This document shows positions 1,032 to 21,261 of a stretch of DNA of 64,000 nt, one piece after another. A program made the translations under genes and the position numbers. The stretch's first letter is position 1; each line of letters begins with the position of its first letter. The stretch is from Rhizophagus irregularis (taxonomy: Eukaryota). The notes below the pieces were generated by a model. That model saw only the letters and a program-made list of their open reading frames with translations, searched no databases and had not been told where the DNA came from. The stretch is taken from positions 4,464,001 to 4,528,000 of the forward strand of contig NC_089435.1 in the NCBI RefSeq assembly GCF_026210795.1. Direction: 5' to 3'.

Positions 1032-2255
1032 TTACAAAATACTATTGATTCCTACTCGTAATGCTCGACGGTCCATATGACCCTTAGAAAAGATCTGTAA
1101 AAGGACCCCGATGCCTTCTATTATTTTTTTATTATCCAAAGGGTGACTAGACTTCAGGACTTCATATCGGGAGAATAACTCCTTTACGGTCTCAGGTTTT
1201 GGAATTTTAGTCTTTGTGGTCCTATCCCGTACTTTTGCTAAGAAGTTTTGGAAGTCTGATCCCAGGGTCTTACCAGATAGTCCGTAGGCTTCCCGAAAGA
1301 CGTACTTAATCCAGGTATCTGTGTTCTTAGCTATAACACCGGATACGAGGAGGTGTTTTCTTTCTTTAGGCGATGGATATTCCCGAGCAAACTCGATTAG
1401 CTGGGAGGACTTTTTTGCTTCAGCTACGGCCTTCTGGCCATAAGGACTAAACTTCGATCGAACTGGGTTCAAACTCGGATTGAATGGAGATCGAACTGGG
1501 TTCAAACTCGGATCGAACGGAGATTGAACTGAGATCGAACTAGGATCGAACTGAGATTGATCAGTGATCGAACTGAGACTAGTATCCCATCTAACCCGAA
1601 TAGATAACGGATCGCTCTTGGATCTTCTAAGATCAAATACTATAAATTCACGTTGTAGAGTAAGGTCATCGATTACTGGAGCTAGTGACTCCGATTCTTC
1701 TGTATACTGGCGGATGATCCTCTTAGTATCGGTCAAACTTCCGTGACCTCCATGTAGGGAAATATAATTCACATTTTCACGAATAGCCTTGGGAATGGTA
1801 AAGAATCTTTGGGCCACATAGATACACGAGATATTTTTGTGACGCCCGTGTGTAAAAAATCCAGTGATGAGATCCTGGGTTTTTTTAGGCGCATCCATCA
1901 AATCCTCGAAGATTACCACAGTAGCCTGGATGGAGTTGAAGTCCTTAACATTTGGAATCTCACTATGGGATACTGCGGTAAACGGAATTTCTTCTTCTTT
2001 GAAAAAATCACGTACGACTGCCCACTTCGGTTCATCGAGGTATCTGCCAACTAGAATTACCGCATCACATAATATGTACCTTTCGCCATCCTCCTTTGCC
2101 TTCTTGTCTCCCATTAACAAATTAATGATCATAGTTGTTTTACCCGAATCAGAACTTCCTGCTACGGCAAGACGGAAAGGCCATGATGGGGCAAACTCAT
2201 TACCCTGTCTCGAGTCGGTCGTGTACTCGTCCAAATTGTATACATAAAGATCCAT
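1032..2255 (-). CDS. A32-like (FtsK/HerA superfamily) DNA-packaging ATPase
   Basis: [16 protein letters not shown] (Walker A), VVIFEDL (Walker B), FFTHGRHKNISCIYVAQ (arginine finger and sensor motifs), IPKAIREN; intact 407 aa; C-terminal extension contains 11-aa repeats. Confidence 0.92.
   Translation of the reverse strand: MDLYVYNLDEYTTDSRQGNEFAPSWPFRLAVAGSSDSGKTTMIINLLMGDKKAKEDGERYILCDAVILVGRYLDEPKWAVVRDFFKEEEIPFTAVSHSEIPNVKDFNSIQATVVIFEDLMDAPKKTQDLITGFFTHGRHKNISCIYVAQRFFTIPKAIRENVNYISLHGGHGSLTDTKRIIRQYTEESESLAPVIDDLTLQREFIVFDLRRSKSDPLSIRVRWDTSLSSITDQSQFDPSSISVQSPFDPSLNPVRSPFNPSLNPVRSKFSPYGQKAVAEAKKSSQLIEFAREYPSPKERKHLLVSGVIAKNTDTWIKYVFREAYGLSGKTLGSDFQNFLAKVRDRTTKTKIPKPETVKELFSRYEVLKSSHPLDNKKIIEGIGVLLQIFSKGHMDRRALRVGINSIL
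1455..1580 (-). repeat. 33-bp (11-aa) coding tandem repeat inside the ATPase (SQFDPSSISVQ/SPFDPSLNPVR/SPFNPSLNPVR)
   Basis: Repeated gatcgaactgggttcaaactcggat. Confidence 0.8.
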
Positions 2256-2286
2256 TTGAATTTTATTCTAATTTAGTTTAAATACG

Positions 2287-4459
2287 ATGTCGACACCAAT
2301 TGCAATTTATACTCCTTCAGAGCCTACTGGACCGCTTCCTAGGGATTTGCGTGATATGAATAATATACCATTAGTTGCGGTAATTAAGGATCTAACAGAT
2401 TTTTTAACTGTCAGTGATCGCATGGTTGTTAATCGAGATGTACAAAATGCAAACCATCATCTTAAACATGCTCTTAATTTATTAATTCATCGCTGTAGAG
2501 AAACATACGAAGAACGCGATATATTAAAAGCAGAACGTGATCGATCTCGAAAAGAACGTGATGAATTACAAGATGAACTCGAGGTTCAAACGGGTTTGTT
2601 AGGTCTTACACAAGATGAGCTAAATAACGTACAAGATACTATTACTAGTTTAGAAGCTAATTTGGCTGAATTGGAACGTGAGTTTGGTGGTATGCGGACG
2701 ACTAATCGTCGACTTCAGCAGCAATATAATCTTATGAGAGGAGAACGTAATAGAGCTATAGGTGAACGTAATAGAGCTATAGGCGAGCGTGATGTGGCAC
2801 GAAATCGGCTTGTATATGCCAATAATCGGGTTCTTTTTGGAATTCGGACATTGGGACGTCTTAGGAATCGACTTTTCCAACAAATAGCCGCTCTGCGTAT
2901 CCAAGTACAATGGTTTCGGATTAGACAATTGAACCTTCCTCCACCTCCTCTCAACCATCCACAAAATACGATATGGCTGCCGTTGGTATAGCTGCCCCCA
3001 TATTTCATGGTCGGGAAGATGAAGATCTTAATCTTTTTATTGATAACTTTTTAGGGTATATTAATACCGTTGGTATTGATCCATTGGACGATGCCGGTGC
3101 GCCTCCTGGTCGGGTGCGAGCGATGGGGGTTCTTCGTAGCTGTATGAGAGATGAAGCGGCGAGGTGGTTTGATGCAGAACTTACTGGAAAAAATTGGGAA
3201 CTCTCGAATATTCGGTTAGTGGCTACTGCAAATGGTGGAGCCGGTGCTACTCGCCGAGGCGTTCAGAGCTTTAGCTGTTCCTGAGGTTGCTAATGGATTA
3301 CATGTTGGTACTTACTTACCCGGGTCTGATGTTGATGCATATTCAAGGATTTTAGCTAATGCGGCGAGAACCGTTGGAGAAACATTTTTCCCATCACGCG
3401 CTGATATCGTTAGAACGAATTTTAAAGTTGAAGAGCAGTGGAGGCGTGCGGGCGGACGTCCTACTCATCAACCCGTTAATGGGTTGGGAAATCATGGAGG
3501 TCCATTTAATGCTGCTGTCCAGAATCAACCAATAGTCTTACAGGGGATTCTCCTGGATCAAGCATTTATGCATATGCGTACAAATTTTCCAACCATCGTG
3601 GAAGAAAGACTTCAAATACGATTTAGTAACCTTTACCAGGAACAAGGTGAACCTGTTCGATCTTACTATAAGCGAGTTGAGAGGGCTGGGGATATTGTAG
3701 GATATAATCGAATTATGGTTACTGACCAGTTCTATAGAGGACTTTTGCCGGAAAACGTTATTGAAGCTTCCAGAATCGGGCGGCACCTCTTAATACATTA
3801 ATCGATAGATTGAGTGATCTTGAGCGACGAAAGGGCGAAATGTTCTATGGATTACAAAGGCGTCAGGGTATTGAAAAGGCTAAAAAGAGGAATTGGCTGG
3901 CTATACTCATCCCGTGACTCCACACGAAGGTGCTGTAATACAAAGGTCGACAGACGTTATTACTCAAGAACGATTACAAGAATTGCTCAAGGCACAAGCC
4001 GAGGAACTTACCAAGAATTTCCAGGCACAATTTAAACAATTACAAGCATCTAAGCCAGTTCGTAAACCACCGGTCTATAGACAACAGATTAAACCTGTTC
4101 GGTCAAAGCCACGGCCACGCGTTGTTCAGGATCCTGATTGGGATGATGGTTATGTAGATCATGATTTTGGTGATGACCCTGGTGACCCTGATGCTCCTGA
4201 GTGGACTAGTGAGGATGATCAACATGTTATTGATCTTATTATGGGATATGAGACGTCTAAAAGATTTCCAAAGAGACTTCAGAAGGCTAAAGATAGACGC
4301 GATGATCTGGAATTAGCCTGAGCAATGAGAAACCTCGATCTTAATGATGATGCTATGGATATTGATACTAATACCGCGAGTTTTGATGACTTGAAAATTG
4401 TTCCCGATGAGGAAGGTGGTTTTCGGATTTGTGCGGTTCGAAGTACAAAAAAAAAGTAA
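2287..4459 (+). pseudogene. Coiled-coil + Ty3/gypsy-like Gag capsid polyprotein (frameshifted)
   Basis: Overlapping ORFs 2287-2991, 2973-3284, 3232-3801, 3893-4321. APIFHGREDEDLNLFIDNF...SCMRDEAARWF resembles the CA N-lobe; LYQEQGEPVRSYYKRV...DQFYRGL resembles the Retrotrans_gag major-homology region. Frame continues past TGA 4319 to ...RSTKKK* at 4459. Confidence 0.7.
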
Positions 4460-4522
4460 ACTCGGATAAGGGTGTAAAGTATCTCGAAACTTCTTAAATC
4501 TGTTCCAAAAAAATCAGTTAAA

Positions 4523-5179
4523 ATGACTCCTATCAAGATTCCTGTGAAGGTTACTAGTAGTAAGCCCACACTTATAAAAGCCGTCACCAAAAATGATTCA
4601 TTAAGTTTATTAAGGTCTGCAGATTTTAGGAAATTACTCCGCGAGATTCTTCGGGAAGAATTAAAGTCTGCTCGTAAAAGTACGGAGATTCCGGAAGACC
4701 TAGTTGAGGAAAAACAAGAAGAGGATATCAGGGAAGATGACCCGATGGATATTGACATAGCTCGTTTGGAGAATACTAAAGATCTTTTAGCGCTGGATGG
4801 GAACGTCAATGGGATAGCAATTCAGTGTTTAGCAGACACTTGTGCTAACGCGTCTTTTATTCAGAGGGAAGCCGCTGAAGAATTAGGGTTGGATATCGAC
4901 AAGAGTATTACACATAACATATCCGGCGCTCCAGGTTCTGGTAGGACATTCGGCATGGTAAAAGGTGTGTCAATCAAACTAACCCCTGATTGTGTAATCA
5001 CTGAGAATCTCGCAGTTTTAAGCGATTACAAGCATAGGGAGATTGGATTGAGCCGGACGTGTCTGAAACGTTACAATTATGATGTCCATGAATCACGTGA
5101 ACATATCGCCCTTACTTGTAATGAGAAGAATGTTTTTATCCCGATAGTTTCTGATGTGAATCGAGGAGACAAAAAATAG
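4523..5179 (+). CDS. Retropepsin-like aspartic protease
   Basis: EDDPMDID linker, then LDGNVNGIAIQCLADTCANASFIQREAAEELGL...ISGAPG...EIGLSRTCLKRY; retropepsin pattern with DTC at the DTG position. Confidence 0.8.
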   Translation: MTPIKIPVKVTSSKPTLIKAVTKNDSLSLLRSADFRKLLREILREELKSARKSTEIPEDLVEEKQEEDIREDDPMDIDIARLENTKDLLALDGNVNGIAIQCLADTCANASFIQREAAEELGLDIDKSITHNISGAPGSGRTFGMVKGVSIKLTPDCVITENLAVLSDYKHREIGLSRTCLKRYNYDVHESREHIALTCNEKNVFIPIVSDVNRGDKK

Positions 5180-5193
5180 GGAATATTTATTTT

Positions 5194-6296
5194 TTATTCC
5201 CAAAATTTGCGAATTAAATCGGGAACATCCTCCTCTAATCTACTAGCGGGTTCCCAAGTGGCTTCGGTATCTGGGTATCGTTCCCACTTGATTAGATACT
5301 GGTCTTGACCCTTCCTGATGCGATGCCGGAGTATCCGCTCAGGTACAAATCTTCGGGTTGGCCCTTGCCCTTTATCACGGACTCAAGGTGGGAGATGCTC
5401 ATTTTCTGGAACAATCTGCAACTCTTTTCTTTTCGAGTGTACGCACATCTGGATACACCTAGACGCCCGTGTGGTCCATCAAGAAGATACGTAGGAGGCT
5501 GTTCGGGTGAGAGGATCATTTTTTTGATGACACGGATATTGGGATTCCATCTTATGTCACCTGTACGAAATTTTCCATGGAGTTTATTCCCGAGTACTGA
5601 AATAGGTTCGTCTAACTTGACTCGGACATGTATTCCTTCAGAGAGAAGTTCCGTCTTTTTTGACACCTTGGGTGACCCAGTCGGAATGTCTGGAGGATTT
5701 CTTTGCCAGATTTCATCTATTTTACTAACCACATCATGGAAATCTTCTGACCATTCCACGGATGTCACCCCAGTCTTCAACTCCTGTGCCACCATTCGTT
5801 TTAGGAGAGGTTCCTGGATTGCTTGGATGGCTCGTTCAGGCGTATGATTGCTGTTTGTGTCTTCTGGTTCGCCGAACCTCATCATTACCCCTAGGCTGTT
5901 CAGGAAAAAATCACGTACCTGGTCGTTAGTGAATTCTGATCCGGAGTCTGTCTCTATTCGATGTGTTGGTGGCTTAATGCGATTTCTTCTGTAGATTTTA
6001 ACAAATCCATTGAGAACCTTATTTGCGGTTTTATCCTTTAGGGGCTCTGCATCGACTCGTTTACCCGCGACTTCTACCACTACGAGGAAATAGTGGAATC
6101 CTTTGGGGTCGACTGGCATCTCTGCGAGATCTGCCTGATGCGTCGCATTTGGTTTTCATACAACTACTCGTGGACGCTCTGATGACTTCTCCTTTAGGGG
6201 CTTTTTGTATAGGTTGTAGTGCTCCTCACCTTTTAGAATTCGTGCTGGTACTCCGGAGAGATTGTAGTATTTGTAATAATTCTCTAAATGCGACAT
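5194..6296 (-). pseudogene. rve (DDE) integrase with C-terminal chromodomain, Polinton/adintovirus-like
   Basis: ATG at 6296; HQADL (D1), IETDSGSEF (D2), ERAIQ (E); in another frame the C-terminus reads QYLIKWERYPDTEATWEPASRLEEDVPDLIRKFWE* (chromodomain). One in-frame stop and frameshifts. Confidence 0.88.
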
Positions 6297-6340
6297 ATTA
6301 CGACAAATTAAAGGAAAGATTTTGGACTTCAAATCTTAAG

Positions 6341-6661
6341 ATGACACGATTTTACTGCCTAAAGTGTAAGAAGGAAACCGAGACTGCTAGTGAAATACAA
6401 GATATGACCACAAATGGGCGTTACCGGCTGCATGGTGATTGCACAGTTTGTGGTATGCATAAGAATACTTTTACTGGGATAGACTGGGTTATCAAAAAGA
6501 AAACCAAGGAGAAGAAAAAAGAAACTGCGGCTAAAAGACATCAGACGGCGTACAATCGGCAATGCAAAAAACTCGGGCAGAAAATCTTAGATTCTGATGA
6601 CACGTGTAAGCAGTGTATTGATAAATGCCTTAAGGAGGCAAAAAAGAGGAAGACGGATTAG
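6341..6661 (+). CDS. Small Zn-ribbon protein (DUF5679-like, seen in Polinton/adinto-like elements)
   Basis: MTRFYCLKCKKETET...NGRYRLHGDCTVCGMHKNTF; the likely start is ATG 6341 inside ORF 6023..6661. Confidence 0.7.
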   Translation: MTRFYCLKCKKETETASEIQDMTTNGRYRLHGDCTVCGMHKNTFTGIDWVIKKKTKEKKKETAAKRHQTAYNRQCKKLGQKILDSDDTCKQCIDKCLKEAKKRKTD

Positions 6662-6670
6662 TACCGCCTT

Positions 6671-7186: not shown

Positions 7187-7251
7187 TGTATGTTACTTAT
7201 AGTTACCTAATCTTCAATTGCCGAATATATTTTTTCTGACGGGGGTAAGTG

Positions 7252-7560
7252 GTCATAGTTCGGGTGCCATAGTTCGGGTGCCATAGTTCGGCTGCCATAG
7301 TTCGGCTGCCATAGTTCGGCTGCCATAGTTCAGGACATAGGGAATCATACTTGGAGGGTCTAGGTGAGTATATAAAGGGTAATCATAGCGTGAATCGGGT
7401 TTTGGGGTCTGAGGGGCTGACTAAGGCTGCCATAGTATTATTATAAGATTTTTCGTACTATGGCAGGTACTATGGCAGGAGATTCTGTTTGATTTCGGCT
7501 TTATTCACGTTTTTATTCCGTTTTTAAGTAGTCTGCCATAGTTGCCATAGTTGTCATAGT
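7252..7560. repeat. Subterminal 14-bp tandem repeat (GCCATAGTTCGG(G/C)T, about 6 copies) plus dispersed GCCATAGT/ACTATGGC motifs
   Basis: Tandem copies at 7252-7340; the core recurs in both orientations at about 7428-7560. Confidence 0.9.
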
Positions 7561-8086
7561 AAGTTATATATAAGAAAAAATGTAGAAAAAAAATAAGTGG
7601 AAAAATACCGTGGCAGACTACGCGTACTGCGGCAGGTAAACCTGCCCCACGGAGGGGGGATGTAGGTACTGCGAGGCCGTTGAGGCCGAGGTGGAGGAAC
7701 GTAGTGACTACACTACCAGCCCGACGACTCTGAATACATAATCTGGCTACTACACTATAATCTACCCCTTTTATTTTGATGCTATCTCTATTCACATTCT
7801 AGCTATATTTTTATACCTTTCTTGATATCTGTATTTTTCTCTTATGTATGATTTTATTATCACGTTATAATCTAAATACCCCACACTTTAACCTAGGTAC
7901 CTCTTTTTTCTTCCTGTTTCTACTCTATTTGTAATTTAAGTTATATATTGTTGATACTGACCTTTCACGTCTGATTGAATGTCAAATTCTATATTGAAGT
8001 ACTTACCCTTTGTGCCTATTTGGTTGCCTTTCTAGATGCTGAAATGTGGTAAAAAAATATGGTGTCGAGTGGCGCAGTATTTCGAT

Positions 8087-8360
8087 GTAAATCTGCGATT
8101 AATTTTGGCTGGACACTATGTCATAATTCCAGCCGATCTTTTGGGCATGTGATTTGAGGATCCAGCCTGGCGCCATGGTAGTGACCTGATAGTGACCTGG
8201 TAGCTACCGTAGAACTGTCATGGAACTGGCAGGGAACTAGAGTGGTTCTATTAGTTTGCCAGTTCCAGTTCACTTTTATGCCAGCTTGGATGCCGAAATA
8301 TTACCTAAAGTTCTGGCTGAAATTATGAAATAGTGCTGGCCAAAATTAATCAAAATTTAC
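8087..8360. repeat. Long imperfect inverted repeat (fold-back), arms about 80 bp
   Basis: gattaattttggctggacactatgtcataattccagcc pairs with ggctgaaattatgaaatagtgctggccaaaattaatc; inner pair ggaactggca/tgccagttcc. Confidence 0.8.
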
Positions 8361-8402
8361 TACACATCATTTTTTTTTTCTAAAATGGATGTTGCGAGTA
8401 GA

Positions 8403-8760: not shown

Positions 8761-8945
8761 TCACGTGGCCAGGCTTTAGTCTTCCCTTTTCGCAACTTTT
8801 AAGGGATATTTGAGAAATATTTGAGTGGCATTTGGGGTTTGGGCTAGTGGATCATTTGGTTAGAGAATTGGAGGTGCCAACTTCGTATCTCTTTTTGGTA
8901 TACCTTTATATTACGTGAAGGCTATATCATACCCGAGTACTTATC

Positions 8946-9005
8946 TAAAAATGAAGCCTTCTGCCATTTTTATATAATATAATTCCGCAAAAGGCTTCAT
9001 TTTTA
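8946..9005. other. Hairpin/palindrome: 19-bp arms (1 mismatch), 22-nt AT-rich spacer
   Basis: TAAAAATGAAGCCTTCTGC-cattttt atataatataattcc-GCAAAAGGCTTCATTTTTA. Confidence 0.9.
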
Positions 9006-9140
9006 CAGATATATCTGGATGTCTTTCTTTTACATTTCTCCTACTAAGTTCGCTATCATTTCTTTTTGTATTTATCGAAAAAAAATAATTAAACATTTCC
9101 GAATTTTATAAAGTAATATAAACATTTTCAAACTAACAAC

Positions 9141-12100
9141 ATGCATACACCAACTAATTTTGACCAAACTGATCACACCGGAACTCTCACCCGCTACGAC
9201 AGCGCCAGCCCTTTAGCTGGTATCCCATCACGTAATGATATTGTGGCAGAATTCGATAATGGGATGACCACTATACTTCAACAAAGCCTATCCGGCAAGC
9301 AACCCATACATTTCATGCCTACTGAAGTTAGTGATGATATCGAGGGGTATTCCTCCTATATCTTGCATATCACTGGTTCTTTGATTAATAGGCAAAAGGT
9401 GGTCGTGAATATCACAGCATCCGACCATTCTTCGATGTTGAAGTACCTGAAAACTATTCCCCCTCTTCACTTAAGACCATATTAGCACGCATTTTATCAG
9501 TTACACTCAAAAATACAACAAAATTTGGGGTTGAGGATATTCGTGCTTTTCCACTTCAGGGTTATTATACAGAAAAGAAAGCATATATCCGTATAAGAAC
9601 GTGGAACTACTTTGATCGGTATAATGCCCTAAAAGCAGTTCGTGAAGTCGGCATTCGTACAGTCTCAGATGATCTAAACTGCCAGTATTATTACTGCAAA
9701 GTAGCTCGTGAAGAACGATTACCTCTTTCAAGCTGGGCCGTATTAAGCAATTATTTATACGAATTCATCCCAGATGGTACTTACCTATTTCGACTATCTG
9801 TGGATAATTATAATCCAATAATATAAGTGAGGACAATTATAATAATCCATTATTCTCCTCAACACTTACGAGGGATCGAACCCTCATACTCACATGGGAT
9901 ATTGAGACATATAGTTCACGAAAAACAGGCGAGGTGCCTAACGCAAAATATGATGAAGACAGAGTGTTTATGATTTGTATGACAGTGCATTGGAAAGATG
10001 ATCCCGAACCGTTAAAACAAATCTGTCTTGTCGATGTTGAAACAGCACCAGAGCCAAGCTGAATCACAATTGTATGTGGATCCCAGACAGATTTACTAAA
10101 AGCATTCGCTTTATGTTGGAAACTTCTAGCTCCGGATATACACATAGGCTTTAATGATTCTCAATACGATTGGTGGTTTATTGTAGAGAAAGCTAATAAA
10201 TTAGGAGTTCTCGAATGGATGTTCAATCATATGTCATTCAAGCCATCGAGCCTGGAAAAAATTATAAAATGGGAATATCGATATAATATGATAAAAGTAA
10301 ATGATGGAAAATTCCATTCGAAACATCTTAAAATTCCGGGATGTGTAGCTATTGACGTCCGACCCTGTTTTATGGGAATTTATTCTAAGGCTGAAAAGAG
10401 TAGTTTAGCATTTTACCTAAATGAATGTGGGCTCGAAAGTAAAATGGATATGCCTATTCACCGCATGAACAAATATTATGAAAGGGCATTAAAAAAGCCA
10501 GATTCCATGTTGGCCGAACAAATGCGCGAAGTGGCCAAATATTGTATTATCGACGCTCTTAGTTGCCAGCGGTTAATGGTAAAGCATAATGCAATTAATG
10601 AGTATAGAGAGGTGGCATCCATAGCCTTCTTATTATTATTTGATGCACATTATTTTGCGGGAGGTATGAAGGTTTGCAATTTTTTAAGTGCTAGCGCATG
10701 GCAAAGAGGGATCCTAACCAGTATGATTTCAAGCCAACAAACAGAAACTGGAAAATACCCTGGAGCCTATGTTTTCCCACCAGTAAAGGGTCTCGAAAAT
10801 AGACGTCCTGTAACTGGTTTAGATTTCGCATCGTTATATCCGAATCTTATCATAATATATAACCTCTCACCCGACAAAATCATTTTATCTCAAGAGCATG
10901 CCATATCTGTAGAACAAAGCGACAAAAAGCTTCATAAGATAGAGTTTCTATTTAATAACAACCCCTAACGTGCCTGGTCAGTTCAGCATAACAATATTTC
11001 TGAAGAAAAAGGACTCTATACTAGCGTATTGGAATATTTATCAGGTAAACGAAATGAGATGAAGAAGCGTCTTGCACCTTTGAAAGAGAAAAAGGAAGAC
11101 ATGGACTTGGTAATAAGTTCAATGGGTAAAAGTTTGTCATTATCAGAAGCCATCGAGCAGATCTTAGCGAATGCAGAGGTAGAAAAACATAACGGTTTTA
11201 CTAAAAATTTATATCATTTTATTCATAAAGAAAAGCATGAATTCATAGCAGAATATGATTCTATTTGTTTCGACTGTTCTTGTTTGGATAAGAAACAATA
11301 TGCTTTCAAGATATATATGAATTCATTCTATGGTACGGCTGGAGATAGTAAATCCCCTTCTTCTTACGTGAACTTGCTGGGGGTGTTACTTCGGCTGGAC
11401 AGAGAAATATCAAACTCGTTGCGGATTTCGTCAAGAGAAAGGGATTTAGGATAAAATATGGTGATACGGATTCCTTGTATTTAGTCTGTCCAGAAGAACG
11501 CTTCCAGAGGTGTGATGAGGCTTATGATAGTGGCAACGGGATCTCAAAAGAAGAATATTGGTCTCGAATGGTAGAAATCTCTATGGTGAAAATGGAAAAA
11601 CTTCGTGATGAAGTTAATGACTTTCTCAAGGAAGATAACGGATCCCCTTATCTTAAAATGGCATATGAGGAAGTCTTATTTCCGGTAGTATTTACTGGAA
11701 AAAAAAAATACTATGGTATCCCGCATGAAAGCAAGCCGAACTTTAATAAAAAGCTTTTCATTCAGGGAGTTGAGGTTGTAAAGTGGGGGCAGTCTAAACA
11801 CTTTCGTGGGATGGGTAAGAAGGTCATGGAAGAATCTATGAGACTGGATAATACTCGCACCTTGCATCAGATTGTGGAGAACGTGCTTAAAGAAACCATA
11901 AATGATATTCACAGATAGATCTTAATGGGGTGATTAAAACTGCTGTATGGAAGCCTGATAAGAATAACAAGAGTGTCCAGCATTTTATTTCACAAATGCG
12001 AGACAGACATACTCGTGAAGAAGCAGATGCCAAACGGCTCATAAAAAGAGGGCTAACATCTGAGCCTTATCTTTATGAAATCCTAGAACCGGGTGAGCGT

Positions 12101-12937
12101 TTTGAGTATGTTGTAGTTGAGAATGATTCATCAGATAAGGTCGGAAATAAAATGGAGTATCCAGAAGTAGTGAGGCGATTAGGTAAAAAGATCAATATCA
12201 GCTATTATCTGAAAACCGTCGTCAGCCTTTGTGCACGATTTATTAACTATGATGAAAGTTTCCAGCCATCATCTGAAATTGTGCTGGAGGCCTTAAAAAA
12301 GTTGAAAGATGCTAATAAAGCGGGTGATAATAAAGCGGATGACGGTGGGGTGGATGGAAATGACCTGGATGAAGACGAAGAAGATGAAGACAAAATGGAT
12401 GAAGATGAGGTATCAAAAATAAGAGATGCCTTAGCGCAGAAATCGGCTGAAAAGTGGATTAAGGGGTATATCAAAAGCCTACGTGATGGTCCGAAAAAAG
12501 ATAAAACCATCATATCTCATTTATGGGAAGGGGCACGCATTTACGTGAAAAAAATATTTGATACTACTTATGCCGACAAGGGAGAACACCTAACTAACAA
12601 TGCTTATTACCAATCATTCCTCAATGCGCTAGATAAGCAAGAAGAATCCATCCGCTTAAAACTTTCATCATTGCTTAAAGAAATTTCTGAGGTTGATATA
12701 GAGTATAGAGACAGTATGTATAAATTAGTTACTAAGAAGCGAGCAATGTCCTTAGAACAATATTTAATATCATATTATTTGGATGAGTGTAAGCTACTAG
12801 CAGATTTCTGAAACACATGGTACAAAGTAGTTGGCCTAGAAATTATACGCTATCGAACATTATCGAAGTTACAGGATGACAAAAAAGATGATTCGTCCAA
12901 AGCGGATATAGACGAGATCATCGAATTATATGGATAA
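9141..12937 (+). pseudogene. polB: Family B DNA polymerase, nucleic-acid-primed (Pol delta/NCLDV, asfarvirus-like type), intronless and disrupted
   Basis: Exo[10 protein letters not shown], ExoII IGFNDSQYDW, ExoIII YCIIDA, region II RPVTGLDFASLYPN, region III KIYMNSFYG, region [16 protein letters not shown]; several stops and frameshifts. Confidence 0.93.
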
Positions 12938-12950
12938 ATACTCTTAGCGG

Positions 12951-13481
12951 TGTTAACTGATTCAGTACGTTGAATAGATTAACTATGATTTGCAGTCAGG
13001 GAGATTAAGTACGTTTAACTATGACTGAAATCCAATCAAACAAGACACGCTTAAAATAGGGAGTTCGTTTATAGTGTAAAAGGTTATACTTTATTATAGA
13101 ACTTTATAATTACAAGAATAAGAACTAATAGGAACTAAGGTTAACTAATTCGAACTGAAGGAACTTAACTTATAACGAGGGAAAATACCAACGTTATTTA
13201 TATAAAAGTTACTACATATAAAGATATAATAAATATAATAGATATAACTAATGTAATAAATATAACTAATATAATAAATATAATAAATAAATTAAATATA
13301 ATAAATAAAATAATTATATCGATTATATTAAATATAATTAATATAATAAATATAATAGAAATAATAGGCTAAGGAGGCTGCGGCTAGGTCGGCTTGGCAC
13401 AGTTGGGTACAGTAGATCCTAATTTTCCACATGATCTTCTGGCGCAGTAAGTTGTAACTCTACACGTGACTAGGGGTAACA
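12951..13481 (-). mobile_element. Solo LTR (TG...CA) with 4-bp TSD GCGG
   Basis: gcgg|TGTTAAC ... GTAACA|gcgg (12947-12950 and 13482-13485); internal TATA-like and AATAAA motifs on the minus strand. Confidence 0.75.
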
Positions 13482-13586: not shown

Positions 13587-14645
13587 CTATCTTCGAACTT
13601 CTGGCCTCTGATCATAAATCCCAGCCTCAGAAATGTTCGGAGACGATAAAAAATAGTTCCAATTAGGAGAATACTTGGTATTACTTTTTTCTTTCGGCTT
13701 AGCACTCCACAAATTCCATATTTTTTTCCCAAATACGAAGTACATAATTGCAATCAGTAAAAAGATAAGTATGGAATATATTATCAACGGCGACATCAAG
13801 GAGCTCGCAACGATAGGAATAGCTGATGGTAAAGATACCGTTTCTGCGCCATCTACAGAAATAATTTGAGATGAATCATTCATAGGCGGGGGTGGAGGGG
13901 GTATTTCATTATTTTCCTTCAATTCTAACTGGTCCCTGAAGGACCTATTTTCCTCCCTTAATTTTGATCACGCTGAATACAAAGCATCTATTTCCCGTCT
14001 AAATATGCTATTTGATGACTCTATCCTCTTTTCCATACATTCTATTGTATATTCTTTTGAATTACGGTCCTCCTTCACCTGTTCCAATTCAAGCCTGAGA
14101 GAATCAATCTCTTTAGGATCGGATAAGCTTATTTGGACTGGCTCCTCTATCACCTCTCCCATTACATCCAAATCATGATATGTACGCTCTAGATCTATGT
14201 CCTCCAACTTACCTTCCAATTCACGTATTTTAGTTTCAAGAGAAAGAATCTGGACCTTGTCAGCGGATGAAGCTTTCTGGGCCAAAGTCGCCTTTCTCTT
14301 CAGTGTTTTAATCTCTGATTTGAGCGATTGGATTTTAGCAGTATATTTGACTTCAAGCTCACGTTGACTTTTGGAATGAGACTTCCGTTCAGAAATAAGT
14401 TGGGATCTAACCTTAGTACTGGACGCGTTTAACTGGCTAGCTTTATTTTCAAACTCCTTTTCTCGCTCATTGTACTTATCTACCAGCTTTTCGCTGAGAT
14501 CATTAATTTCGGCTTTAGATTTAATAGCAGAATATAATTTTTCTTTAAGCTCTTGCTCATATGTACCACCAAGTCGTTGTCTGACCCCCTTAAAGGAATC
14601 ATTATCTTTATTATTGATATTTTTCAAGATATATACATTGGTCAT
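13587..14645 (-). pseudogene. Coiled-coil protein with polyproline and a C-terminal transmembrane segment (one premature stop)
   Basis: ORFs 13968..14645 and 13587..13922 are in frame across TGA 13968 (…LYSA*SKLREENRSFRDQLELKENNEIPPPPPP…LIIYSILIFLLIAIMYFVFG). Confidence 0.65.
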
Positions 14646-14707
14646 AGCCTTTTTTTTTCGGCTTAGTTGCTAATATAAAAAAAATGTGTCTAAAAATTTC
14701 TGGACTG

Positions 14708-14860
14708 AATCTACCGAAAATATATCGATAGTACTGAATACACCGAATATACCGAATATATCAGATGGATCGAATGTACCGAATGTACCGAAAATAAATC
14801 GATAATATCGAACAAAAATCAATTGAATATCGAAATTATATCAAAAATACACCGATAATT
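14708..14860. repeat. Cluster of ~9-bp (T/C)ACCGAATA-like motifs between divergent genes
   Basis: caccgaatat accgaatata…cgaatgtaccgaatgtaccgaaaat. Confidence 0.65.
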
Positions 14861-14916
14861 TTTCGAAAGATTTTTTTATATCTATCTGTAAAAAATACTT
14901 CGGTATCTGCGTTCAG

Positions 14917-15350
14917 ATGCAACCTCCCTATCAGCTGAAGATATTCAGGATATTATTAAAGCTAAAAATTCAATGAAGCGAGCATCAGAAGCTATGGCTA
15001 ACAAGTACAAAATATCATCACGACGGGTATATCAAATATAAAGAGGAGCCCATCCACAAATAGATCCTAAAGACATAAATCGATTTTCGGAAGAACCTGG
15101 TTCGCCTCAGCAAGCAGACCCTGTGGAATGTAATGTTATTTCTGGAAGTAAGGTAAAAAAGTTTGGAGGAAAAAAAACTAAGTCTAAATCCGTTCGTATC
15201 TCTGAGTTACCTGTTATTCAGACACCACTAGCTTCAATAAGCTCAAAAAGTTTAAATATAAGCAATGAGGAATTAGAAGCATTTTGTGAGAAAGAAGATA
15301 AGAGAGGCGAAAAAATCACAGAAGAAATGAATAGGATACTAGCCACGTAA
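14917..15350 (+). pseudogene. Small putative HTH DNA-binding protein, disrupted
   Basis: LSAEDIQDIIKAK...SEAMANKYKISSRRVYQI*RG resembles a helix-turn-helix and runs in frame into ORF 15123..15350. Confidence 0.4.
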
Positions 15351-15463
15351 AAGATATTTTTCATTTAGTTCATTATAACGTAATAACAACTCCTCACATA
15401 ATTCATTGAGATTTTCTTTAGACTTAAGAGTGTTATATAACATTCTTTCAAGTTCCTCATAAC

Positions 15464-16279
15464 TCACTTTTTTTTTAATGTCTCATTCGCGCTCAAGTCC
15501 ACTTGGTCCGGAATCGAGGATTCATCACATTCGGGAGTAGTGGTTATACAATTCACCTCGAGCTTGTTCTTGACTTTGTGCATGGTGACTGGAATAATTA
15601 AATCCTTACCGTTATGAGAAATCTTTAATTCATCTTTGTCCCAGTCAATTGCACATTTATATTTCTTAAGAAGAGGATTCGAAAATATTAGCATTGGCTT
15701 AGAGTATTTTACAACTATAAAATCTTCATATATAGTAAATCTAGGAGCTAAGGTTATCGGTAAATTGTGGACGACTCCAATAGATTCAACTGGCACAGTA
15801 GCAATACCACTAAGATCATGTTTTATGGATTTGTCGATTCTATATCCTACGCGTTCAACAATATCAGGTGTTATAATGGGAAGTTCGGCACAAGAGTCCA
15901 GTGCCATAGCTGGAATTTTAAGACGCTTAATCTTGCATTTTATAGATGCAATGCTTGTGGTGGGCTCCTTCTTTTTGACGAAATCTATCTCCATAGGTCC
16001 ATCCAAAACATCCTCTTCATCTGAATCTTGAGCTAAGGCAGGTGCACACTTTTTAGCTTGCTGAATTATGTACGGAAGATAATTCTCAAATTCAATTTGA
16101 ATGATTTTGCGAATAGTTTCTTCTAAAGACACACGCTTACCATGACTATTTTTATCTGATGAGGCATTATGGGTAGAAGACAAATTATTGTCTTGCTTTA
16201 CCTTACGAAGATCATATTTATTAGACACCTTAGACTTTGAGGATTTATCAGAATACTCACGTTGCTCAGTGTAATTCAC
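15464..16279 (-). CDS. Retropepsin-like aspartic protease (in the -1 frame relative to the upstream Gag-like ORF)
   Basis: DGPMEIDF linker; KIPAMALDSCAELPIITPDIVERVG...LSGIAT...MLIFSNPLLKKYKCAIDW. Confidence 0.82.
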   Translation of the reverse strand: MNYTEQREYSDKSSKSKVSNKYDLRKVKQDNNLSSTHNASSDKNSHGKRVSLEETIRKIIQIEFENYLPYIIQQAKKCAPALAQDSDEEDVLDGPMEIDFVKKKEPTTSIASIKCKIKRLKIPAMALDSCAELPIITPDIVERVGYRIDKSIKHDLSGIATVPVESIGVVHNLPITLAPRFTIYEDFIVVKYSKPMLIFSNPLLKKYKCAIDWDKDELKISHNGKDLIIPVTMHKVKNKLEVNCITTTPECDESSIPDQVDLSANETLKKK

Positions 16280-18687
16280 TTTTTTTTTCTATGACTTATG
16301 TAAATATTCATATCACGATTTCCGGAGTCTGAACCGGCTGATGAATTATCAGAGTTATAATCATTGTCCTCAGGTTTTGATATATCATCATCAGAAAAAA
16401 TGGGATCAGACTGTTCATCTACTGTAGCCATATGAACTCGACTACTTCTGGATTTGGAATCTTTAGCGAATTTAGCCAATAAGGCTTCGATTTGTCCTAA
16501 TCTTTTTTCCAATCCTCCAAAAGGTGAGGACTCTGAGCGTTGTCGCTATGGTGTTTTGGTATCTCTGGTATCTTTTCTAGCAAATTTAGCTAAGTGGGCT
16601 TCAATTCGTTCTAATCTTTTTTCCAATCCTCCATTATTATAGTCTGAGAATTCTGAACACTGATACTGAGCTGATTTGGTATCTATGGTATCTTCTCTTA
16701 CGAGTTTGGTGAGTTTGGCTAAATTAATTTCGATTACTCCTAATCTTTTTTCCAATTCTTGATTAATATAATTATCAAAGATTGAAGCATTATTTGAATT
16801 AACTACATTTTCTGATAGCTGTAAACGTTGGGCAAGTTTAGAATGCACCTGCATTGATTCCGCTAACTATGCCTCCAAAGAAGCTATTTTGGAATTTAAC
16901 TTTTCAAAATTGGCCGAGACTTCATTATTCTGGGAGTGTAGTACTTGAGCCGGTTGTGTTAGTTGTGCTTGTAAAGAGGCTATTTGGGAATTTAATTTTT
17001 CAATTTCAGCTGAAGAATTATTCTGATAATTTTGGCCTCCATTTAAATTGGAAGCACGCTCCAGCCACATGTCTTTTAGATTTGTAAAAAATGCATTAAT
17101 ACCAGCAGGAGCGATAGCCCGCATCTATGTATAAAGATTACCTGACAAGTAGTTCTTAAGAAATCCTATAGTTTGTGCATCACCATCCGCTACACCTAAT
17201 AATAAAGGTCGGATTCTTTTTTCATAAGTATCTGGCGTGTCTGAGGGTAGAAATTTTTCTTGAGTTAATCTTTGAAGTACCGACTGCCGACTACCTACTG
17301 TTTCTCGTTGATAATGTGATCTCATCCAAGCACGTAAAGTAGCTGGAGAATTAATATTAGCATTTCCATTATATGGATCTTGGGCAGGAACTGGTAAATA
17401 TTTTCCTCCCATCTGAGCTTTAAAAATATCACATTTGACAACATCATCGAAATCTCCAGTATTTGCATTTTCAAGAACAGTCATATGTTCTTGTGCAAAT
17501 GATATTGATTGAATAAGTCTATCTAAATAATCATCAGGAGGTTCTTGGCCTATATAGGGCTTAGTTTTTGCAAGAACCGGTGCAATCATAGTTAATACTG
17601 GTAAACGTCTAGCATCTGCCATATTTCCTAATGGGTTATTCTGAAGCGCCAAAATTTGTCCCTGCAAATTTAAAATATTCTGGTTTCTTTGCCTAATCAC
17701 TAGCTGGAAAACAAACTTTTCACGTAGCAATCCACCAATGCGGGTTTGTTTTCTTGCTATAATAACTAACATCCTATTTACCTGGTTTTGGGCATTGGTT
17801 TGCAACTGTCAGGTATTTTGCTGAAGACGGTTAGTATCTCGCTGATACAATAGCTGTTTAGCAAATTTTTCTCGCAATAATCCTTGGACACGCCTATTTT
17901 TATCCTGATATGAAAACATCCAGTGACGAGATTCTTGTCTCTCATTATTATAGGCCAGCATAGCCAAGTTCTGCTCTCCTTAAGCATTATCTTTTTCCCT
18001 TACAGTTCTTTCAGCCTGAGCTCGGGATTCATTTAATAACTGCTGGAATCGCAGATTTTCATTTCTCATATCCCTTAACTGCTGTATAAGAACCCATTCC
18101 TGCTCATTTGTTTCGTTTAATATGTTCTGATATTAATCCCGCTCAGTTGTGGCATTTTGCAAAGTAACCCAAATAGTATTTAACAAGCCCCTGATACCAT
18201 CTAAAATATTAATAGGATTTGGCAGTAGTGTACCGGCACCTCTAATATGATTTTCAATCTGATCTAACCCTCTGTTAATATTTCCAATAAGATCAGCTGT
18301 TGCCATATCTAAAGCATTTATTGAGATTTTTTTATTTATGAGAATCCGGATTCTTGCCTTAAGACGTTCTACCTTATTTTCAAGCTCTATGATTCGGCCA
18401 TCTTGAATAGACCTAACCTCATCTTTGAATTTTTTATCTTGTTGTAAGATCCTAAGCTGTTTTCGCAAATCAGATATTTCCGATTTAAGTTTCTCTACCT
18501 CTTTTTCATGGGCTATGATAGTATTATCCTGTAATGAGATAGTTTGATAACATTGCTCTAGCTCCTTCACAAGAGAACAAAATTTTTTCTCATTACTTTT
18601 ATTATTGGAAATTTCATCCTGAAGCTCACTACGAAGCTCCTGGTTTGTATCTAAGAGTTGTGAATATGCTGGATCGAATGTTGACAT
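16276..18687 (-). pseudogene. Coiled-coil + Gag-like capsid polyprotein with internal repeats
   Basis: Collinear ORFs separated by single stops; KPYIGQEPPDDYLDRL and LQRLTQEKFLPSDTPDTYEKRIR are Gag-like; LEKRLxxIExxLAK repeated three times; ends …SHRKKK*. Confidence 0.65.
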
Positions 18688-18737
18688 GATATTATTCAGC
18701 CCTGATTTATAGAACCATCATATAATCGTGTTTAAGA

Positions 18738-20395
18738 ATGAGTCAACTGCAGATTGTAATAAATCCCGATGAAGAGCTCCATATAGTCTGTAGACTTCTG
18801 TTTTATAATATACCTGGCTTTTATACCAATGCCAAAAACCTATATAATGCATACCAGAAAGAAGGATATTCTTTTCGATTGTGAGATATTGCAAAGTGGT
18901 TAGTGTATCAATATATCCATCAAATTTATCGACAACCACTACCATGCAAAGCTGAAGCAAGTTTTTCAAAGATTAAGATTCCAAACAAGGTTCAGCAGTG
19001 TGACATTCTGCTCCACACTCACGATGATCAGGATGGTAGAAGGATATTCGTTTATACTTTTCTAATCATAGATGTGGCAACACGTTTTAAGGACGCACGC
19101 TCAATAATATCGAGAAATAGTTTAGAAATCTGGAATGCGATAAAAGAAGTATTTGAGGATCTTTCTAATCCTCTCACATGGCCAACATTATTAATGACTG
19201 ATGGTGATGCTTCGTTTCGGAGTGCATTCTTTTGAGAAATGCAACAATACAATGTCCCAATACGTGTTGTCGACCTTTATAGTTTTGAGAGCTTGGCTTT
19301 GATTAAAGCGTTTAAGAAAAGAATAGCAGAATTAATATATAAAGTCCAATATGCTATAGAGGGACGATTAACTGACGGAGAGCGATCAAGACTATGGAAA
19401 AAAATTCTTAAGAAGTATATTGATTATTTGAATAACAGTAAGACACACCTTATTGGGATGTCTCCAGCTCATGCTATGACTTTGGAAGAAGTTAAATCAA
19501 AACCTTCTAGGAAAGCTAAGCGCACAATTGGAAAAGATGAGGAGATAAAGTTACAAAAGGGTACAGCGGTTAGATATTTGTTAAAACCAGGTGAATTGGA
19601 AGGAGACCATAGGCGTAGAGCAACTGATCCATACTGGAGCTTGCGTGTCTATAAGATAAAAAGAGTTGTTATTAGGAAGAACCCGCCACAGCCAATCTTA
19701 TACTATCTTGAAAATGGACCTATTGAATCTACTGCTCATTTGATGGGACGAAATCCCAAAAGACCTTTCAAATTTGAGGAACTTCAAGTAATCGAGGAAC
19801 CTGATAAAATCAAATATCCACCAGATGAATTTATGTGGAAATATTATCCTACTGAATTCGTTCACTATGTTCAAGTTGCTAATGATAAATTGACTAAAGC
19901 CGATCAATATGCTAAGAAGCGTGGTGGCCATTGTCTGGAAAAGACCGGGCGAATAAATGGACATAATGTATACCTCTGGTCCTGTGAAAATGGTGTGCAT
20001 CAATGGGAGTATCTATTAAAGTATATCATGAAAAAATTTGAGTGGTGTCCTCTATGCCACCATACTACTGAAAGAAATTGCCGATACATTTTTAAGGATT
20101 TGCTAGGCAAGAAATTCCCATCCTGCAGACCATCATTTTTGAATGGAATGCAATTAGATGGTTATAATGAAGAATTAAAATTGGCTTTTGAATATCATGG
20201 ATCCCAACACTATAGTCTTAATTCAATGTTTCATAAGAGAGGCCAGATAGATTTAGATGAACAAAAATCCTGAAGCGAGACATATGTAAGCAAGAAGGTA
20301 TATGTCTTATCTCGGTGCCCTACACATGTGACCTTTTTCCCTACATTAGGTATATGCTAATCAAAAAGGGATATTTGGATGATGCAAGTGGGTAA
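18738..20395 (+). pseudogene. Polinton-type rve integrase fused to a Zn-ribbon + PD-(D/E)XK-like endonuclease domain
   Basis: N-terminus LFYNIPGFYTNAKNLY...AKWLVYQYIHQIY; QQCDIL (D1), LMTDGDASF (D2), [25 protein letters not shown]; then [10 protein letters not shown]...[10 protein letters not shown]...WCPLC...[21 protein letters not shown]; stops near 18886 and 19233, frameshift near 20270. Confidence 0.85.
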
Positions 20396-20481
20396 CCCAA
20401 TCTATTGGGCAAAGCATTTATTGCCAGAACTTGAGAAATTGTTACATTATTTTTCGATATAATAATTAGTTGGATCAAATC

Positions 20482-21261
20482 ATGAAATACGTAATATTCG
20501 CAGCGGACGAAGTCAAGCCCTCGAAAAAATATCAGGGTGATCTTCATGCACCGGCATGGCCTTTTCGAATTATAGTTGCAGGGGCTAGCAATTCGGGTAA
20601 AACGAATATGATTCTAAACCTGCTGGTGATGAACAAATTTTACTATATGTTTAGGAAAAAAAAGAGTTCTAAAATAGGTGAGCGCAATGTTAAATGCAAT
20701 GACGTGATACTTTGTGGCCACCATCTTAACGAGCCTAAATATAGAATTGTTCGAAACTTTTATAAATATCTTGCGCAAGATAAATCCAAGCCATACTATT
20801 AAGATATTACATTCTCTACACTCACTCCTGATAAAATTCCAGATCCAAAAAAGTTCAATGTTAAAAGAAGTAAACTAACGATATTTGAGGATGTCTGCTC
20901 AGACCCTCCAGCTATACAGAAAAAAATTATTCCATATTTTAGTAGAGGTCACCACGAGAATATTTCTTCTATTTATGTCTCACAAAAATTTCACAGGATT
21001 TCTACGGATATTCGTGAAAATGCAACGCATATTGTACTCTTCAGTAGTGGAGGTTCAACCCGAAAACTTGCTAACATTATAAGTCCTTATACAGATGCTG
21101 ATCCGCACAAAGCTTCAAAGGTCATCGATGGTTATTTGAAATAAAAGGAATTTGTGGTCATCGATATAAATAAACCGAGATCTGAATCCTTTTCACTTTG
21201 ATGGGACACTCCGCTCAATTTGGAAAAGGAAATCGAATCGTTGGGCAATACTTCCAACTAG
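20482..21261 (+). pseudogene. Second A32-like packaging ATPase, disrupted
   Basis: APAWPFRIIVAGASNSGKTN; read-through gives TIFEDV, YFSRGHHENISSIYVSQ, DIRENA, EFVVIDI; three in-frame stops. Confidence 0.88.

What the first reader, a model, noticed from the sequence alone, without database searches (positions are those of the whole stretch)
1032..21261. Two independent cassettes pair a dsDNA-virus packaging ATPase and Polinton-type integrase with retro-type Gag and protease, without RT or a jelly-roll capsid
Seen: cassette 1 (1032-6661) and cassette 2 (15464-21261) each encode an A32-like ATPase, an rve integrase and a coiled-coil/Gag-like/retropepsin polyprotein. The genes are tightly packed (31 bp ATPase-to-Gag, 14 bp protease-to-integrase, 50 bp Gag-to-integrase). 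The two copies are highly diverged and differently ordered, which argues against one chance insertion. Established: Polintons/adintoviruses combine ATPase and integrase with double-jelly-roll capsids, an adenain cysteine protease and protein-primed PolB, whereas Gag plus retropepsin normally travel with RT/RNase H. Inference: this may be a chimeric DNA virus or self-synthesising transposon lineage in which a retro-type capsid and protease replaced the jelly-roll/adenain module, so DNA would be pumped into a Gag shell. Polinton-like and giant-virus-derived sequences are already known from AM fungi, so novelty has to be checked.
Basis: partly seen in the sequence, partly recalled or inferred. 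Interest (0 to 1): 0.93.

Follow-up and report, generated by a model that had tools for sequence, protein, structure and literature searches.

The report
Fungal Polinton with retroviral-type capsid
These are broken copies of a virus-like DNA transposon of mycorrhizal fungi whose relatives carry a DNA polymerase and a DNA-packaging motor but, in place of the usual DNA-virus coat, a predicted retrovirus-type coat protein and its protease, so it likely packs DNA, not RNA, into a retrovirus-like shell.

Summary
Cassette 1 is one arm of a young, multi-copy Rhizophagus-type element that runs off the window's left end. In soil-metagenome relatives (ATPase mostly 55-67% identical) the order integrase > < protease < Gag < coiled-coil | ATPase > is conserved: 19 of 19 contigs long enough show Gag beside the ATPase. 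Longer contigs add a mavirus-like protein-primed PolB, an SF3 helicase and an inverted repeat (about 14 kb). None of 227 ORFs is RT, adenain or a jelly-roll-sized unknown. The type-1 Gag model matches retroviral/Ty3/Arc capsids (top 33 rows). An A9 run plus stop joins Gag to protease in 8 of 8 lineages. So this is a Polinton whose capsid and protease module was replaced by a retro-type one. DNA pumping into a Gag shell is inferred and untested, and Gag and ATPase partly recombine apart. Cassette 2 rests on one copy and its Gag was not folded. The PolB between the cassettes belongs to another family. Prior art: Glomus Polintons are known, and a figure legend in Starrett 2021 lists Gag/retropepsin plus S3H, probably this element, with no discussion in the text I read.

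The parts
3..329 (+). C-terminal part of a Zn-finger / 2-cysteine-adaptor family ORF of the element; runs off the window's left end
   Evidence: Homologue of ORFs downstream of the ATPase in L016, L022, L046 and others; 2C_adapt 0.0016 in L046
498..872 (+). Conserved unnamed ORF of the element (possibly DNA-binding; no family hit), shortened here
   Evidence: tblastn 1.8e-8 from the L016 homologue; family of 18 ORFs in the loci
1032..2255 (-). A32/FtsK-type packaging ATPase, intact, with a lineage-specific helical C-terminal domain
   Evidence: Pox_A32 2.8e-10; model of the L021 homologue matches viral A32 ATPases and STIV2 B204, Z 12.1
2287..2991 (+). Coiled-coil protein, head-to-head with the ATPase (31 bp); its end overlaps the CA start codon
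   Evidence: Coiled-coil Pfam hits; conserved in loci
2973..4459 (+). Gag with CA fold (about 100-residue insertion in the N-terminal lobe, no CCHC knuckle); broken by frameshifts and a stop
   Evidence: Model of intact homologue L021, pLDDT 80, matches CA structures; CCHC in 0 of 118 homologues
4447..4455 (+). A9 run just before the Gag stop; predicted -1 slip site into the protease
   Evidence: A9 plus stop in 8 of 8 lineages, -1 frame open in 7 of 8
4478..5179 (+). Retropepsin (DTC motif), ends in a stop with no pol ORF behind it
   Evidence: Asp_protease_2 5e-8
5194..6296 (-). Polinton-type rve integrase with C-terminal chromodomain; one stop and frameshifts
   Evidence: rve 1.5e-8; 62% to intact L016 integrase, Chromo 6e-17 there
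6341..6661 (+). DUF5679 zinc-ribbon protein, head-to-head with the integrase
   Evidence: PF18930 1.7e-17; same position in L016, L021, L023, L035
6671..7186 (-). Unnamed 171-aa ORF, probably accessory
   Evidence: No family and no hit in the loci
7200..7756 (.). Candidate terminal repeat with 14-mer tandem array (7240-7345); possible end near 7756, not confirmed
   Evidence: Repeat D8; ends in ...ACT like L049's ...CCT; contigs show no sharp boundary
9141..12811 (+). Decayed RNA-primed-type PolB; probably a separate asfar-like family, not part of the cassettes
   Evidence: DNA_pol_B hits; best PDB hit 8ywg/9l8u 1e-78, then Pol delta 5e-10; no similarity to the element's pPolB
15464..16288 (-). 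Cassette 2 retropepsin, in the -1 frame of Gag 2
   Evidence: Asp_protease 7.5e-4; 27-35% to type-1 proteases
16280..16288 (-). A9 run before the Gag 2 stop; predicted -1 slip site
16276..18687 (-). Cassette 2 coiled-coil plus Gag-like protein in one frame, six in-frame stops; CA identity only weakly supported
   Evidence: 85% to intact P0002; N-lobe vs type-1 profile Prob 71%, C-lobe colinear but Prob 2%; CCHC in 25 of 99 homologues
18738..20273 (+). Cassette 2 integrase, two stops, with a C-terminal Cys-rich and nuclease-like extension (by eye) instead of a chromodomain
   Evidence: rve 0.0014; extension has no Pfam hit
20482..21261 (+). Cassette 2 A32-type ATPase, three stops, no C-terminal domain
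   Evidence: Pox_A32 in two pieces; 38-43% to type-1 ATPases

Best explanation
This is a Polinton/Maverick-type DNA element of mycorrhizal fungi whose relatives keep a protein-primed polymerase, helicase, integrase and packaging ATPase but carry a predicted retro-type capsid and a retropepsin instead of jelly-roll capsid and adenain genes, and which likely packs its linear DNA into a Gag shell. Steps: (1) shown in relatives: gene set, order and a terminal inverted repeat, about 14 kb; (2) inferred from family knowledge: the excised linear DNA is copied by the short TP-vOTU-palm pPolB with the SF3 helicase, as in mavirus; (3) predicted fold plus conserved signal: Gag is made in excess and a minority Gag-protease arises by a -1 slip at A9 (ribosomal or transcriptional), then the protease matures the shell; (4) inferred, untested: the ATPase drives the DNA into that shell, with the coiled-coil protein as possible adaptor; (5) inferred: the chromodomain integrase inserts new copies, the particle moving between nuclei of the coenocytic hypha. 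The window holds one arm of a young, decayed copy (cassette 1) and a decayed copy of a distant second type (cassette 2). Odds: coherent element with this gene set 0.9; Gag particles carry the element's DNA 0.6; ATPase fills them 0.45.
For: Linkage: 19 of 19 metagenome loci with at least 1.6 kb upstream of the ATPase have Gag there by tblastn with window and database queries; 42 of 45 with at least 350 bp have coiled coil or Gag by HMM (HMMs partly built from these loci); Gag seen in 17 of 27 sequence clusters. 26 of 46 NCBI contig lengths with an ATPase hit also have a Gag-1 hit (proxy) and 7 ATPase/Gag accession pairs lie within 3 numbers (partial lists). Replication genes: pPolB in L016, L038, L046, L049, L055, SF3 helicase in L038, L046, L049. 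Inverted repeat: L021 1-123 is a 100% inverted copy of L049 9718-9840, and the two contigs are 98.8-99.8% identical where they overlap. No RT, adenain or unassigned ORF over 250 aa among 227 ORFs in 23 clusters, bar one bacterial ABC gene. CA fold: top 33 VIA rows are all CA, best Z 10.0, rmsd 2.0 over 74 (PEG10 C-lobe), first unrelated row Z 4.7. A9 plus stop in 8 of 8 lineages; 13 of the 14 A8+ ends among 194 ORF ends are Gag ends. dN/dS 0.03-0.63 for ATPase, CA, protease, integrase, pPolB and coiled coil. A viral contig (L062) shares the pPolB, helicase and integrase (30, 28, 40%) but has a cysteine protease. One lineage (L015/L019/L024) swapped in a long pPolB yet kept Gag beside the ATPase.
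Against: No particle, expression or binding evidence. Gag and ATPase are only weakly co-diverged (Mantel rho 0.28, p 0.014, 15 loci): window vs L001 is 91% in ATPase but 47% in CA, L015 vs L022 is 81% in CA but 68% in ATPase, which fits a loose rather than lock-and-key partnership. Retro-type shells have no known portal and normally co-assemble around RNA (own knowledge). The CA match rests mainly on a 70-residue helical lobe; Foldseek E-values are only 0.05 or worse. The complete element is read from two overlapping contigs, and only 123 bp of the repeat is seen at both ends. L034 has no integrase in the 600 bp behind its protease. For cassette 2 no second locus was found, its Gag was not folded, and an unbiased profile comparison with type 1 first gave Prob 1.9%. 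Loci were fetched by ATPase, so Gag copies that sit beside RT could not appear.
Confidence: 0.5

Rival explanations
1. Same element, but no pumping: Gag co-assembles around the DNA-integrase complex (or carries integrase and mRNA) as an intracellular shuttle, and the ATPase does another DNA-translocation job.
For: Discordant Gag and ATPase divergence; retro capsids co-assemble (own knowledge); type-2 homologues keep a CCHC knuckle in 25 of 99.
Against: Type-1 Gag has no CCHC in 118 of 118 homologues; the ATPase is under strong purifying selection (dN/dS 0.03-0.13) and stays beside the Gag block through a polymerase swap.
Confidence: 0.25
2. A capsid-less self-synthesising transposon that borrows a jelly-roll or giant-virus capsid in trans; the Gag-protease is cargo kept for another use, such as interfering with retrotransposon assembly.
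For: Asfar-like giant-virus traces exist in this fungus (PMC10640383, passages); truncated Gag restriction factors are known (a Ty1 example is row 29).
Against: A regulated Gag-protease junction is conserved in both types, as expected of a maturing shell; no MCP homologue was found in five R. irregularis genomes with NCLDV marker models (passage).
Confidence: 0.15
3. A true jelly-roll capsid gene exists in the element but lies outside the contigs seen or is too diverged to recognise.
For: Only one lineage was read end to end, from two contigs; small ORFs were not folded.
Against: In L021/L049 every ORF over 250 aa is assigned, and the only unnamed one is a coiled coil; adenain is also missing.
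Confidence: 0.06
4. Chance nesting of LTR-retrotransposon remnants inside Polintons.
For: The genome is rich in both classes (PMC8647823, passages); the window copies are decayed.
Against: Same order and spacing across lineages 65-75% identical in DNA, intact ORFs under purifying selection, no LTR or RT.
Confidence: 0.04

Closest known systems
[quoted passage not shown] 5 of Starrett et al. 2021 (PMC8502044)
   Same: The legend of Fig. [quoted passage not shown] Probably (about 0.85) the same family.
   Different: I could not see the figure, so which genome carries those labels is not confirmed. Section 3.4 does not discuss it. No linkage survey, fold test, slip site or selection analysis appears in the passages read.
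Polintons/Mavericks (Polintoviricetes, adintoviruses), including those reported from Glomus intraradices
   Same: pPolB, rve integrase with chromodomain, A32 ATPase, terminal inverted repeat, size about 14 kb. Fungal A32 ATPases group with Maverick-Polinton ones (10.64898/2026.06.19.733378, passage); Mavericks are expanded in Glomerales (PMC11952901, passage).
   Different: No double-jelly-roll MCP, penton or adenain found; CA, retropepsin and a coiled-coil protein instead. Capsid-less Polintons described earlier also lost the ATPase (nine elements, PMC4028283, passage); this one keeps it.
Mavirus-like virophages
   Same: Short pPolB (about 620 aa) with vOTU-like Cys/His, little room for an exonuclease domain, first Asp of motif C replaced (HTDG), and a separate SF3 helicase (compared with the description in PMC11161782, passages).
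   Different: Mavirus has jelly-roll capsids and a cysteine protease and needs a giant virus; no direct sequence comparison with mavirus was made.
Ty3/gypsy retrotransposons and retroviruses (Ortervirales)
   Same: CA fold, retropepsin behind Gag in the -1 frame, chromodomain integrase, CCHC knuckle in some type-2 Gags.
   Different: No RT, RNase H or LTR; the integrase is a separate gene on the other strand; replication genes are DNA-to-DNA.
Transpovirons and Ginger transposons
   Same: Capsid-less relatives of Polintons or of Ty3 integrases.
   Different: Neither is described with a packaging ATPase plus Gag (transpovirons: passage; Ginger: abstract start only).

Membership tests
Polinton/Maverick | Protein-primed PolB | tested here: met
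   PF03175 1.8e-6 in L049, 0.001 in L046; five aligned copies; Atlas nearest clusters DNA_pol_B_2. In relatives; outside the window.
Polinton/Maverick | rve integrase | tested here: met
Polinton/Maverick | Terminal inverted repeats | tested here: met
   123 bp, 100% inverted, between L021 and L049; one lineage only; not confirmed in the window
Polinton/Maverick | 5-6 bp target-site duplication | not testable with these tools
   No copy with both flanks
Polinton/Maverick | A32-like ATPase | tested here: met
Polintovirus / PLV / virophage (Preplasmiviricota) | Double-jelly-roll MCP and penton | tested here: not met
   No unassigned ORF over 250 aa in the TIR-bounded L021/L049 element or among 227 ORFs; small ORFs were not folded, so a penton is less firmly excluded
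Polintovirus / PLV / virophage (Preplasmiviricota) | Adenain-like maturation protease | tested here: not met
   No such Pfam hit in the element's ORFs, whereas the same scan finds it in L062
Ty3/gypsy / Ortervirales | CA fold (type-1 Gag) | tested here: met
   (predicted model)
Ty3/gypsy / Ortervirales | CA fold (cassette-2 Gag) | tested here: inconclusive
   Not folded; profile matches weak
Ty3/gypsy / Ortervirales | Retropepsin | tested here: met
Ty3/gypsy / Ortervirales | Reverse transcriptase / RNase H | tested here: not met
   None in the loci, none in the precomputed domains of 99 + 118 Gag homologues or in the 45 of 144 new representatives scanned
Ty3/gypsy / Ortervirales | LTRs | tested here: not met
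   No long direct repeat flanks either Gag block among the 20 largest families shown
Any virus | Particles holding the genome | not testable with these tools
   Needs EM and particle sequencing

The most novel reading that the evidence does not exclude
A cross-realm chimeric virus lineage: a varidnavirus-type DNA replicon and packaging motor that pumps linear dsDNA into a protease-matured retrovirus-type capsid, with no reverse transcription, active across arbuscular mycorrhizal fungi.
Probability: 0.4. Interest if true: 0.93.

Novelty: new variant of a known kind. Interest (0 to 1): 0.78.

Why it matters
Capsid type and packaging motor are treated as one inherited module that defines a virus realm. 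A Polinton that lost its jelly roll and adenain, took a retro-type CA and protease, and kept its ATPase under selection would break that rule and give a direct test of whether an A32 motor can fill a foreign shell. It would also explain what the young, expanded Mavericks of Glomerales are, suggest a way for DNA to move between nuclei in these fungi, and offer a DNA-carrying Gag particle of about 14 kb capacity. A 2026 preprint still reads these ATPases as ordinary Polinton-like viruses from fragmentary assemblies.

Tried and rejected
No whole genome is held, so no genome-wide copy census. Viral contigs: nothing with ATPase 1, the ATPase alignment, pPolB, Gag 2 or ATPase 2; only L062 with the integrase. 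Genome contigs gave one spurious P-loop match. Sequencing runs: no RNA holder listed. Contigs laid on 7570-8400 show multi-copy sequence on both sides of the candidate end and no sharp boundary or target duplication. Complex prediction (ATPase with CA and coiled coil) was not available; nothing was folded. The Atlas answered only for the pPolB. No stimulatory RNA structure behind the A9 run (z -1.5 to +0.3 against mononucleotide shuffles), so a classic pseudoknot frameshift is not supported and polymerase slippage remains open. (Gag 2 against A2) was circular and is not used. PDB sequence search with the Gag-2 alignment found nothing; the Retrotrans_gag hits come from an alignment that also held type-1 rows. 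The BFVD search with the CA model found no close MELD-virus entry. The predicted intron that joins coiled coil to CA in NCBI gene models was rejected as likely artefact, since the skipped stretch is conserved as protein. The PolB between the cassettes was considered as their replicase and rejected as unlinked. Five look-ups of earlier findings returned nothing. Kapitonov and Jurka 2006 was not held; the Starrett supplement was cut at 4 MB and Table S1 was not in the part searched.
Full report
1. Observation. Six-frame reading and Pfam confirm both cassettes and the 31, 14 and 50 bp gaps. Cassette 1 reads ATPase(-) | coiled coil(+), Gag(+), protease(+), integrase(-) | DUF5679(+). Cassette 2 reads protease(-), coiled-coil-Gag(-) | integrase(+), ATPase(+). 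Most genes are broken. The two sets are distant (ATPase 38%, protease 27%). Named homologues are from Rhizophagus irregularis and other Glomeromycota, so the host is inferred to be R. irregularis or close. ATPase 1 is 96-100% identical to 15 listed R. irregularis protein clusters, a young multi-copy family.

2. Linkage is not chance. With no genome on hand I used three routes. Contig lengths: 26 of 46 NCBI contigs with an ATPase-1 hit also have a Gag-1 hit (a proxy on truncated lists). Accessions: 7 ATPase/Gag pairs lie within 3 numbers, for example CAB5188301/302 and GET65743/744 (partial lists, no rate). DNA: an ATPase alignment fetched 61 metagenome loci, which fall into 27 clusters at 90% DNA identity. 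All 19 loci with at least 1.6 kb upstream of the ATPase have Gag there, head-to-head, by tblastn with window and database queries; 42 of 45 with at least 350 bp hit coiled-coil or Gag HMMs, and the three misses have a divergent short coiled-coil-like ORF (these HMMs were partly built from the loci). Gag is seen in 17 clusters, protease in 6, integrase in 3. The loci were chosen by ATPase, so they cannot show Gag copies that lack it.

3. The whole element. Longer contigs extend the map beyond the ATPase: an F-box-like gene, two conserved small genes that match window 498-872 and 3-329, then a protein-primed PolB and a D5-like SF3 helicase. Cassette 1 is therefore one arm of an element whose replication genes would lie left of the window. 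L021 and L049 are 98.8-99.8% identical where they overlap, and L021 1-123 is a perfect inverted copy of L049 9718-9840, giving a TIR-bounded unit of about 14 kb with a repeat of up to about 820 bp (inferred). All 227 non-nested ORFs of 100 aa or more in the 61 loci fall into 23 clusters; none is RT, adenain or an unassigned ORF over 250 aa, apart from a bacterial ABC gene on L004. The pPolB is about 620 aa with a Cys/His pair near the N-terminus and HTDG in motif C, as described for mavirus in PMC11161782 (passages); its nearest Atlas clusters are Mucoromycota and viral DNA_pol_B_2. One lineage (L015/L019/L024) has a 1193-aa classical pPolB instead but the same Gag-ATPase block. A viral contig, L062, shares pPolB (30%), helicase (28%), integrase (40%) and ATPase (28%) and has a cysteine protease and a fibre-like gene but no Gag or retropepsin match; no MCP was identified on it either. 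It shows what the ancestral morphogenetic side probably looked like.

4. The Gag. An intact homologue (L021, 260 residues, 45-row alignment) folds at pLDDT 80. Against 48,161 chains the top 33 rows are all retroviral, Ty3, Copia, Arc, PNMA or PEG10 capsids: best Z 10.0, rmsd 2.0 over 74 residues, first unrelated row Z 4.7; the N-lobe also aligns (Arc N-lobe, Z 4.2) around an insertion of about 100 residues. Foldseek gives the same families with weak E-values. Type-1 Gag has no CCHC knuckle (0 of 118), type-2 homologues often do (25 of 99). Gag 2 was not folded; its N-lobe matches the type-1 profile at Prob 71% and its C-lobe is colinear but not significant (regions chosen by me; a first whole-region test gave 1.9%). 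The family is large: 1,389 clusters at 50% identity, the best 150 all under 920 aa.

5. Expression signal. In 8 of 8 lineages, both window cassettes included, Gag ends in exactly nine A's and a stop, and the -1 frame runs into the protease in 7 of 8 (cassette 1 has a later break); 13 of 14 such ends among 194 ORF ends are Gag ends. No downstream structure was found, so either ribosomal or polymerase slippage could make the minor Gag-protease. This is how maturing retro-type shells set their protease ratio (own knowledge). The protease ORF ends without a pol gene.

6. Selection and exchange. dN/dS is 0.03-0.13 for the ATPase in the four pairs where it could be computed, and 0.03-0.63 across CA, protease, integrase, pPolB and coiled coil (one pair saturated). 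The ATPase model is a FtsK/HerA/A32 fold. Against a tight motor-shell fit, CA and ATPase distances agree only weakly (rho 0.28, p 0.014), with clear swaps.

7. Mechanism. Best reading: a self-synthesising Polinton whose DNA is copied by pPolB and helicase, packed into a protease-matured Gag shell, likely by the ATPase, and reinserted by the integrase. Gene set and fold are shown or predicted; particle formation and pumping are inferred. Rivals are co-assembly without pumping (0.25), Gag as cargo of a capsid-less or helper-dependent element (0.15), a hidden jelly roll (0.06) and chance nesting (0.04).

8. What is known. Polintons in Glomus intraradices were reported in 2006-2007 (seen second-hand in passages of PMC11296320 and PMC11952901; originals not read). 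Starrett et al. 2021 (PMC8502044: passages, all of section 3.4, part of the supplement; figure not visible) define 'Matrix/Capsid/NC/Pro' and 'S3H' in the legend of Fig. [quoted passage not shown] This is probably the same family. A 2026 preprint places Glomus and Rhizophagus A32 ATPases with Maverick-Polintons and has no occurrence of 'gag' (passages). Ten full-text searches listed no paper whose title or abstract start treats the Gag replacement; subscription journals, Repbase and unseen supplements are not covered. PMC10640383 (passages) reports 15-33 asfar-like polB copies per genome, which fits the PolB at 9141-12811 (that the top PDB hit is the ASFV polymerase is recalled).

9. Verdict. 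A real, conserved, selected chimera: a Polinton by polymerase, integrase, ATPase and TIR, not a jelly-roll virus, and not a retrotransposon. Probably glimpsed once, never worked out in what I could read. New variant of a known kind; interest 0.78.

Noticed in passing
window 9141-12811 (+): Decayed RNA-primed-type PolB, best PDB hit 1e-78 to a 1206-aa polymerase; likely one of the multi-copy asfar-like polB genes of this fungus.
   Followed up: partly
window 8942-9014 and 63861-63924: A 60-bp hairpin-like motif upstream of the PolB recurs 55 kb away, near a tyrosine-recombinase-like ORF (61779-62507, by eye) and a 2-cysteine-adaptor-like ORF (63035-63379, by eye); possibly ends of another element family.
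   Followed up: no
window 60304-60657 (-): A third retropepsin-like fragment by eye, no Pfam hit, not tied to either cassette.
   Followed up: partly
window 13206-13375 and 13587-15350: AT-rich 9-mer array, a coiled-coil/membrane-anchor ORF and an HTH-like ORF between the PolB and cassette 2; which element they belong to is unknown.
   Followed up: no
L007 479-512, L012 3943-3976, L016 5040-5073: The 30-55 bp gap between the head-to-head coiled-coil and ATPase start codons is partly palindromic, suggesting a very compact two-way promoter.
   Followed up: partly
L024 2154-5732 (-): A 1193-aa classical pPolB with an endonuclease VII domain replaces the short pPolB in one lineage.
   Followed up: partly
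L062 (IMG/VR contig): Virus-like contig with the same short pPolB, helicase and integrase plus cysteine protease, ATPase and an 835-aa fibre-like gene; no capsid gene identified in the 13.9 kb held.
   Followed up: partly
L021 128-472 (-): A 115-aa ORF next to the terminal repeat whose end resembles a CA C-lobe by eye; no family hit.
   Followed up: no
P0462: An intermediate Gag: type-1 CA fused in frame to the coiled coil, as in type 2.
   Followed up: partly
window 34743-37687, 42852-44249, 26214-26675: CACTA-type transposase remains, a kinase gene and a ricin-type lectin domain: ordinary fungal repeat landscape.
   Followed up: no
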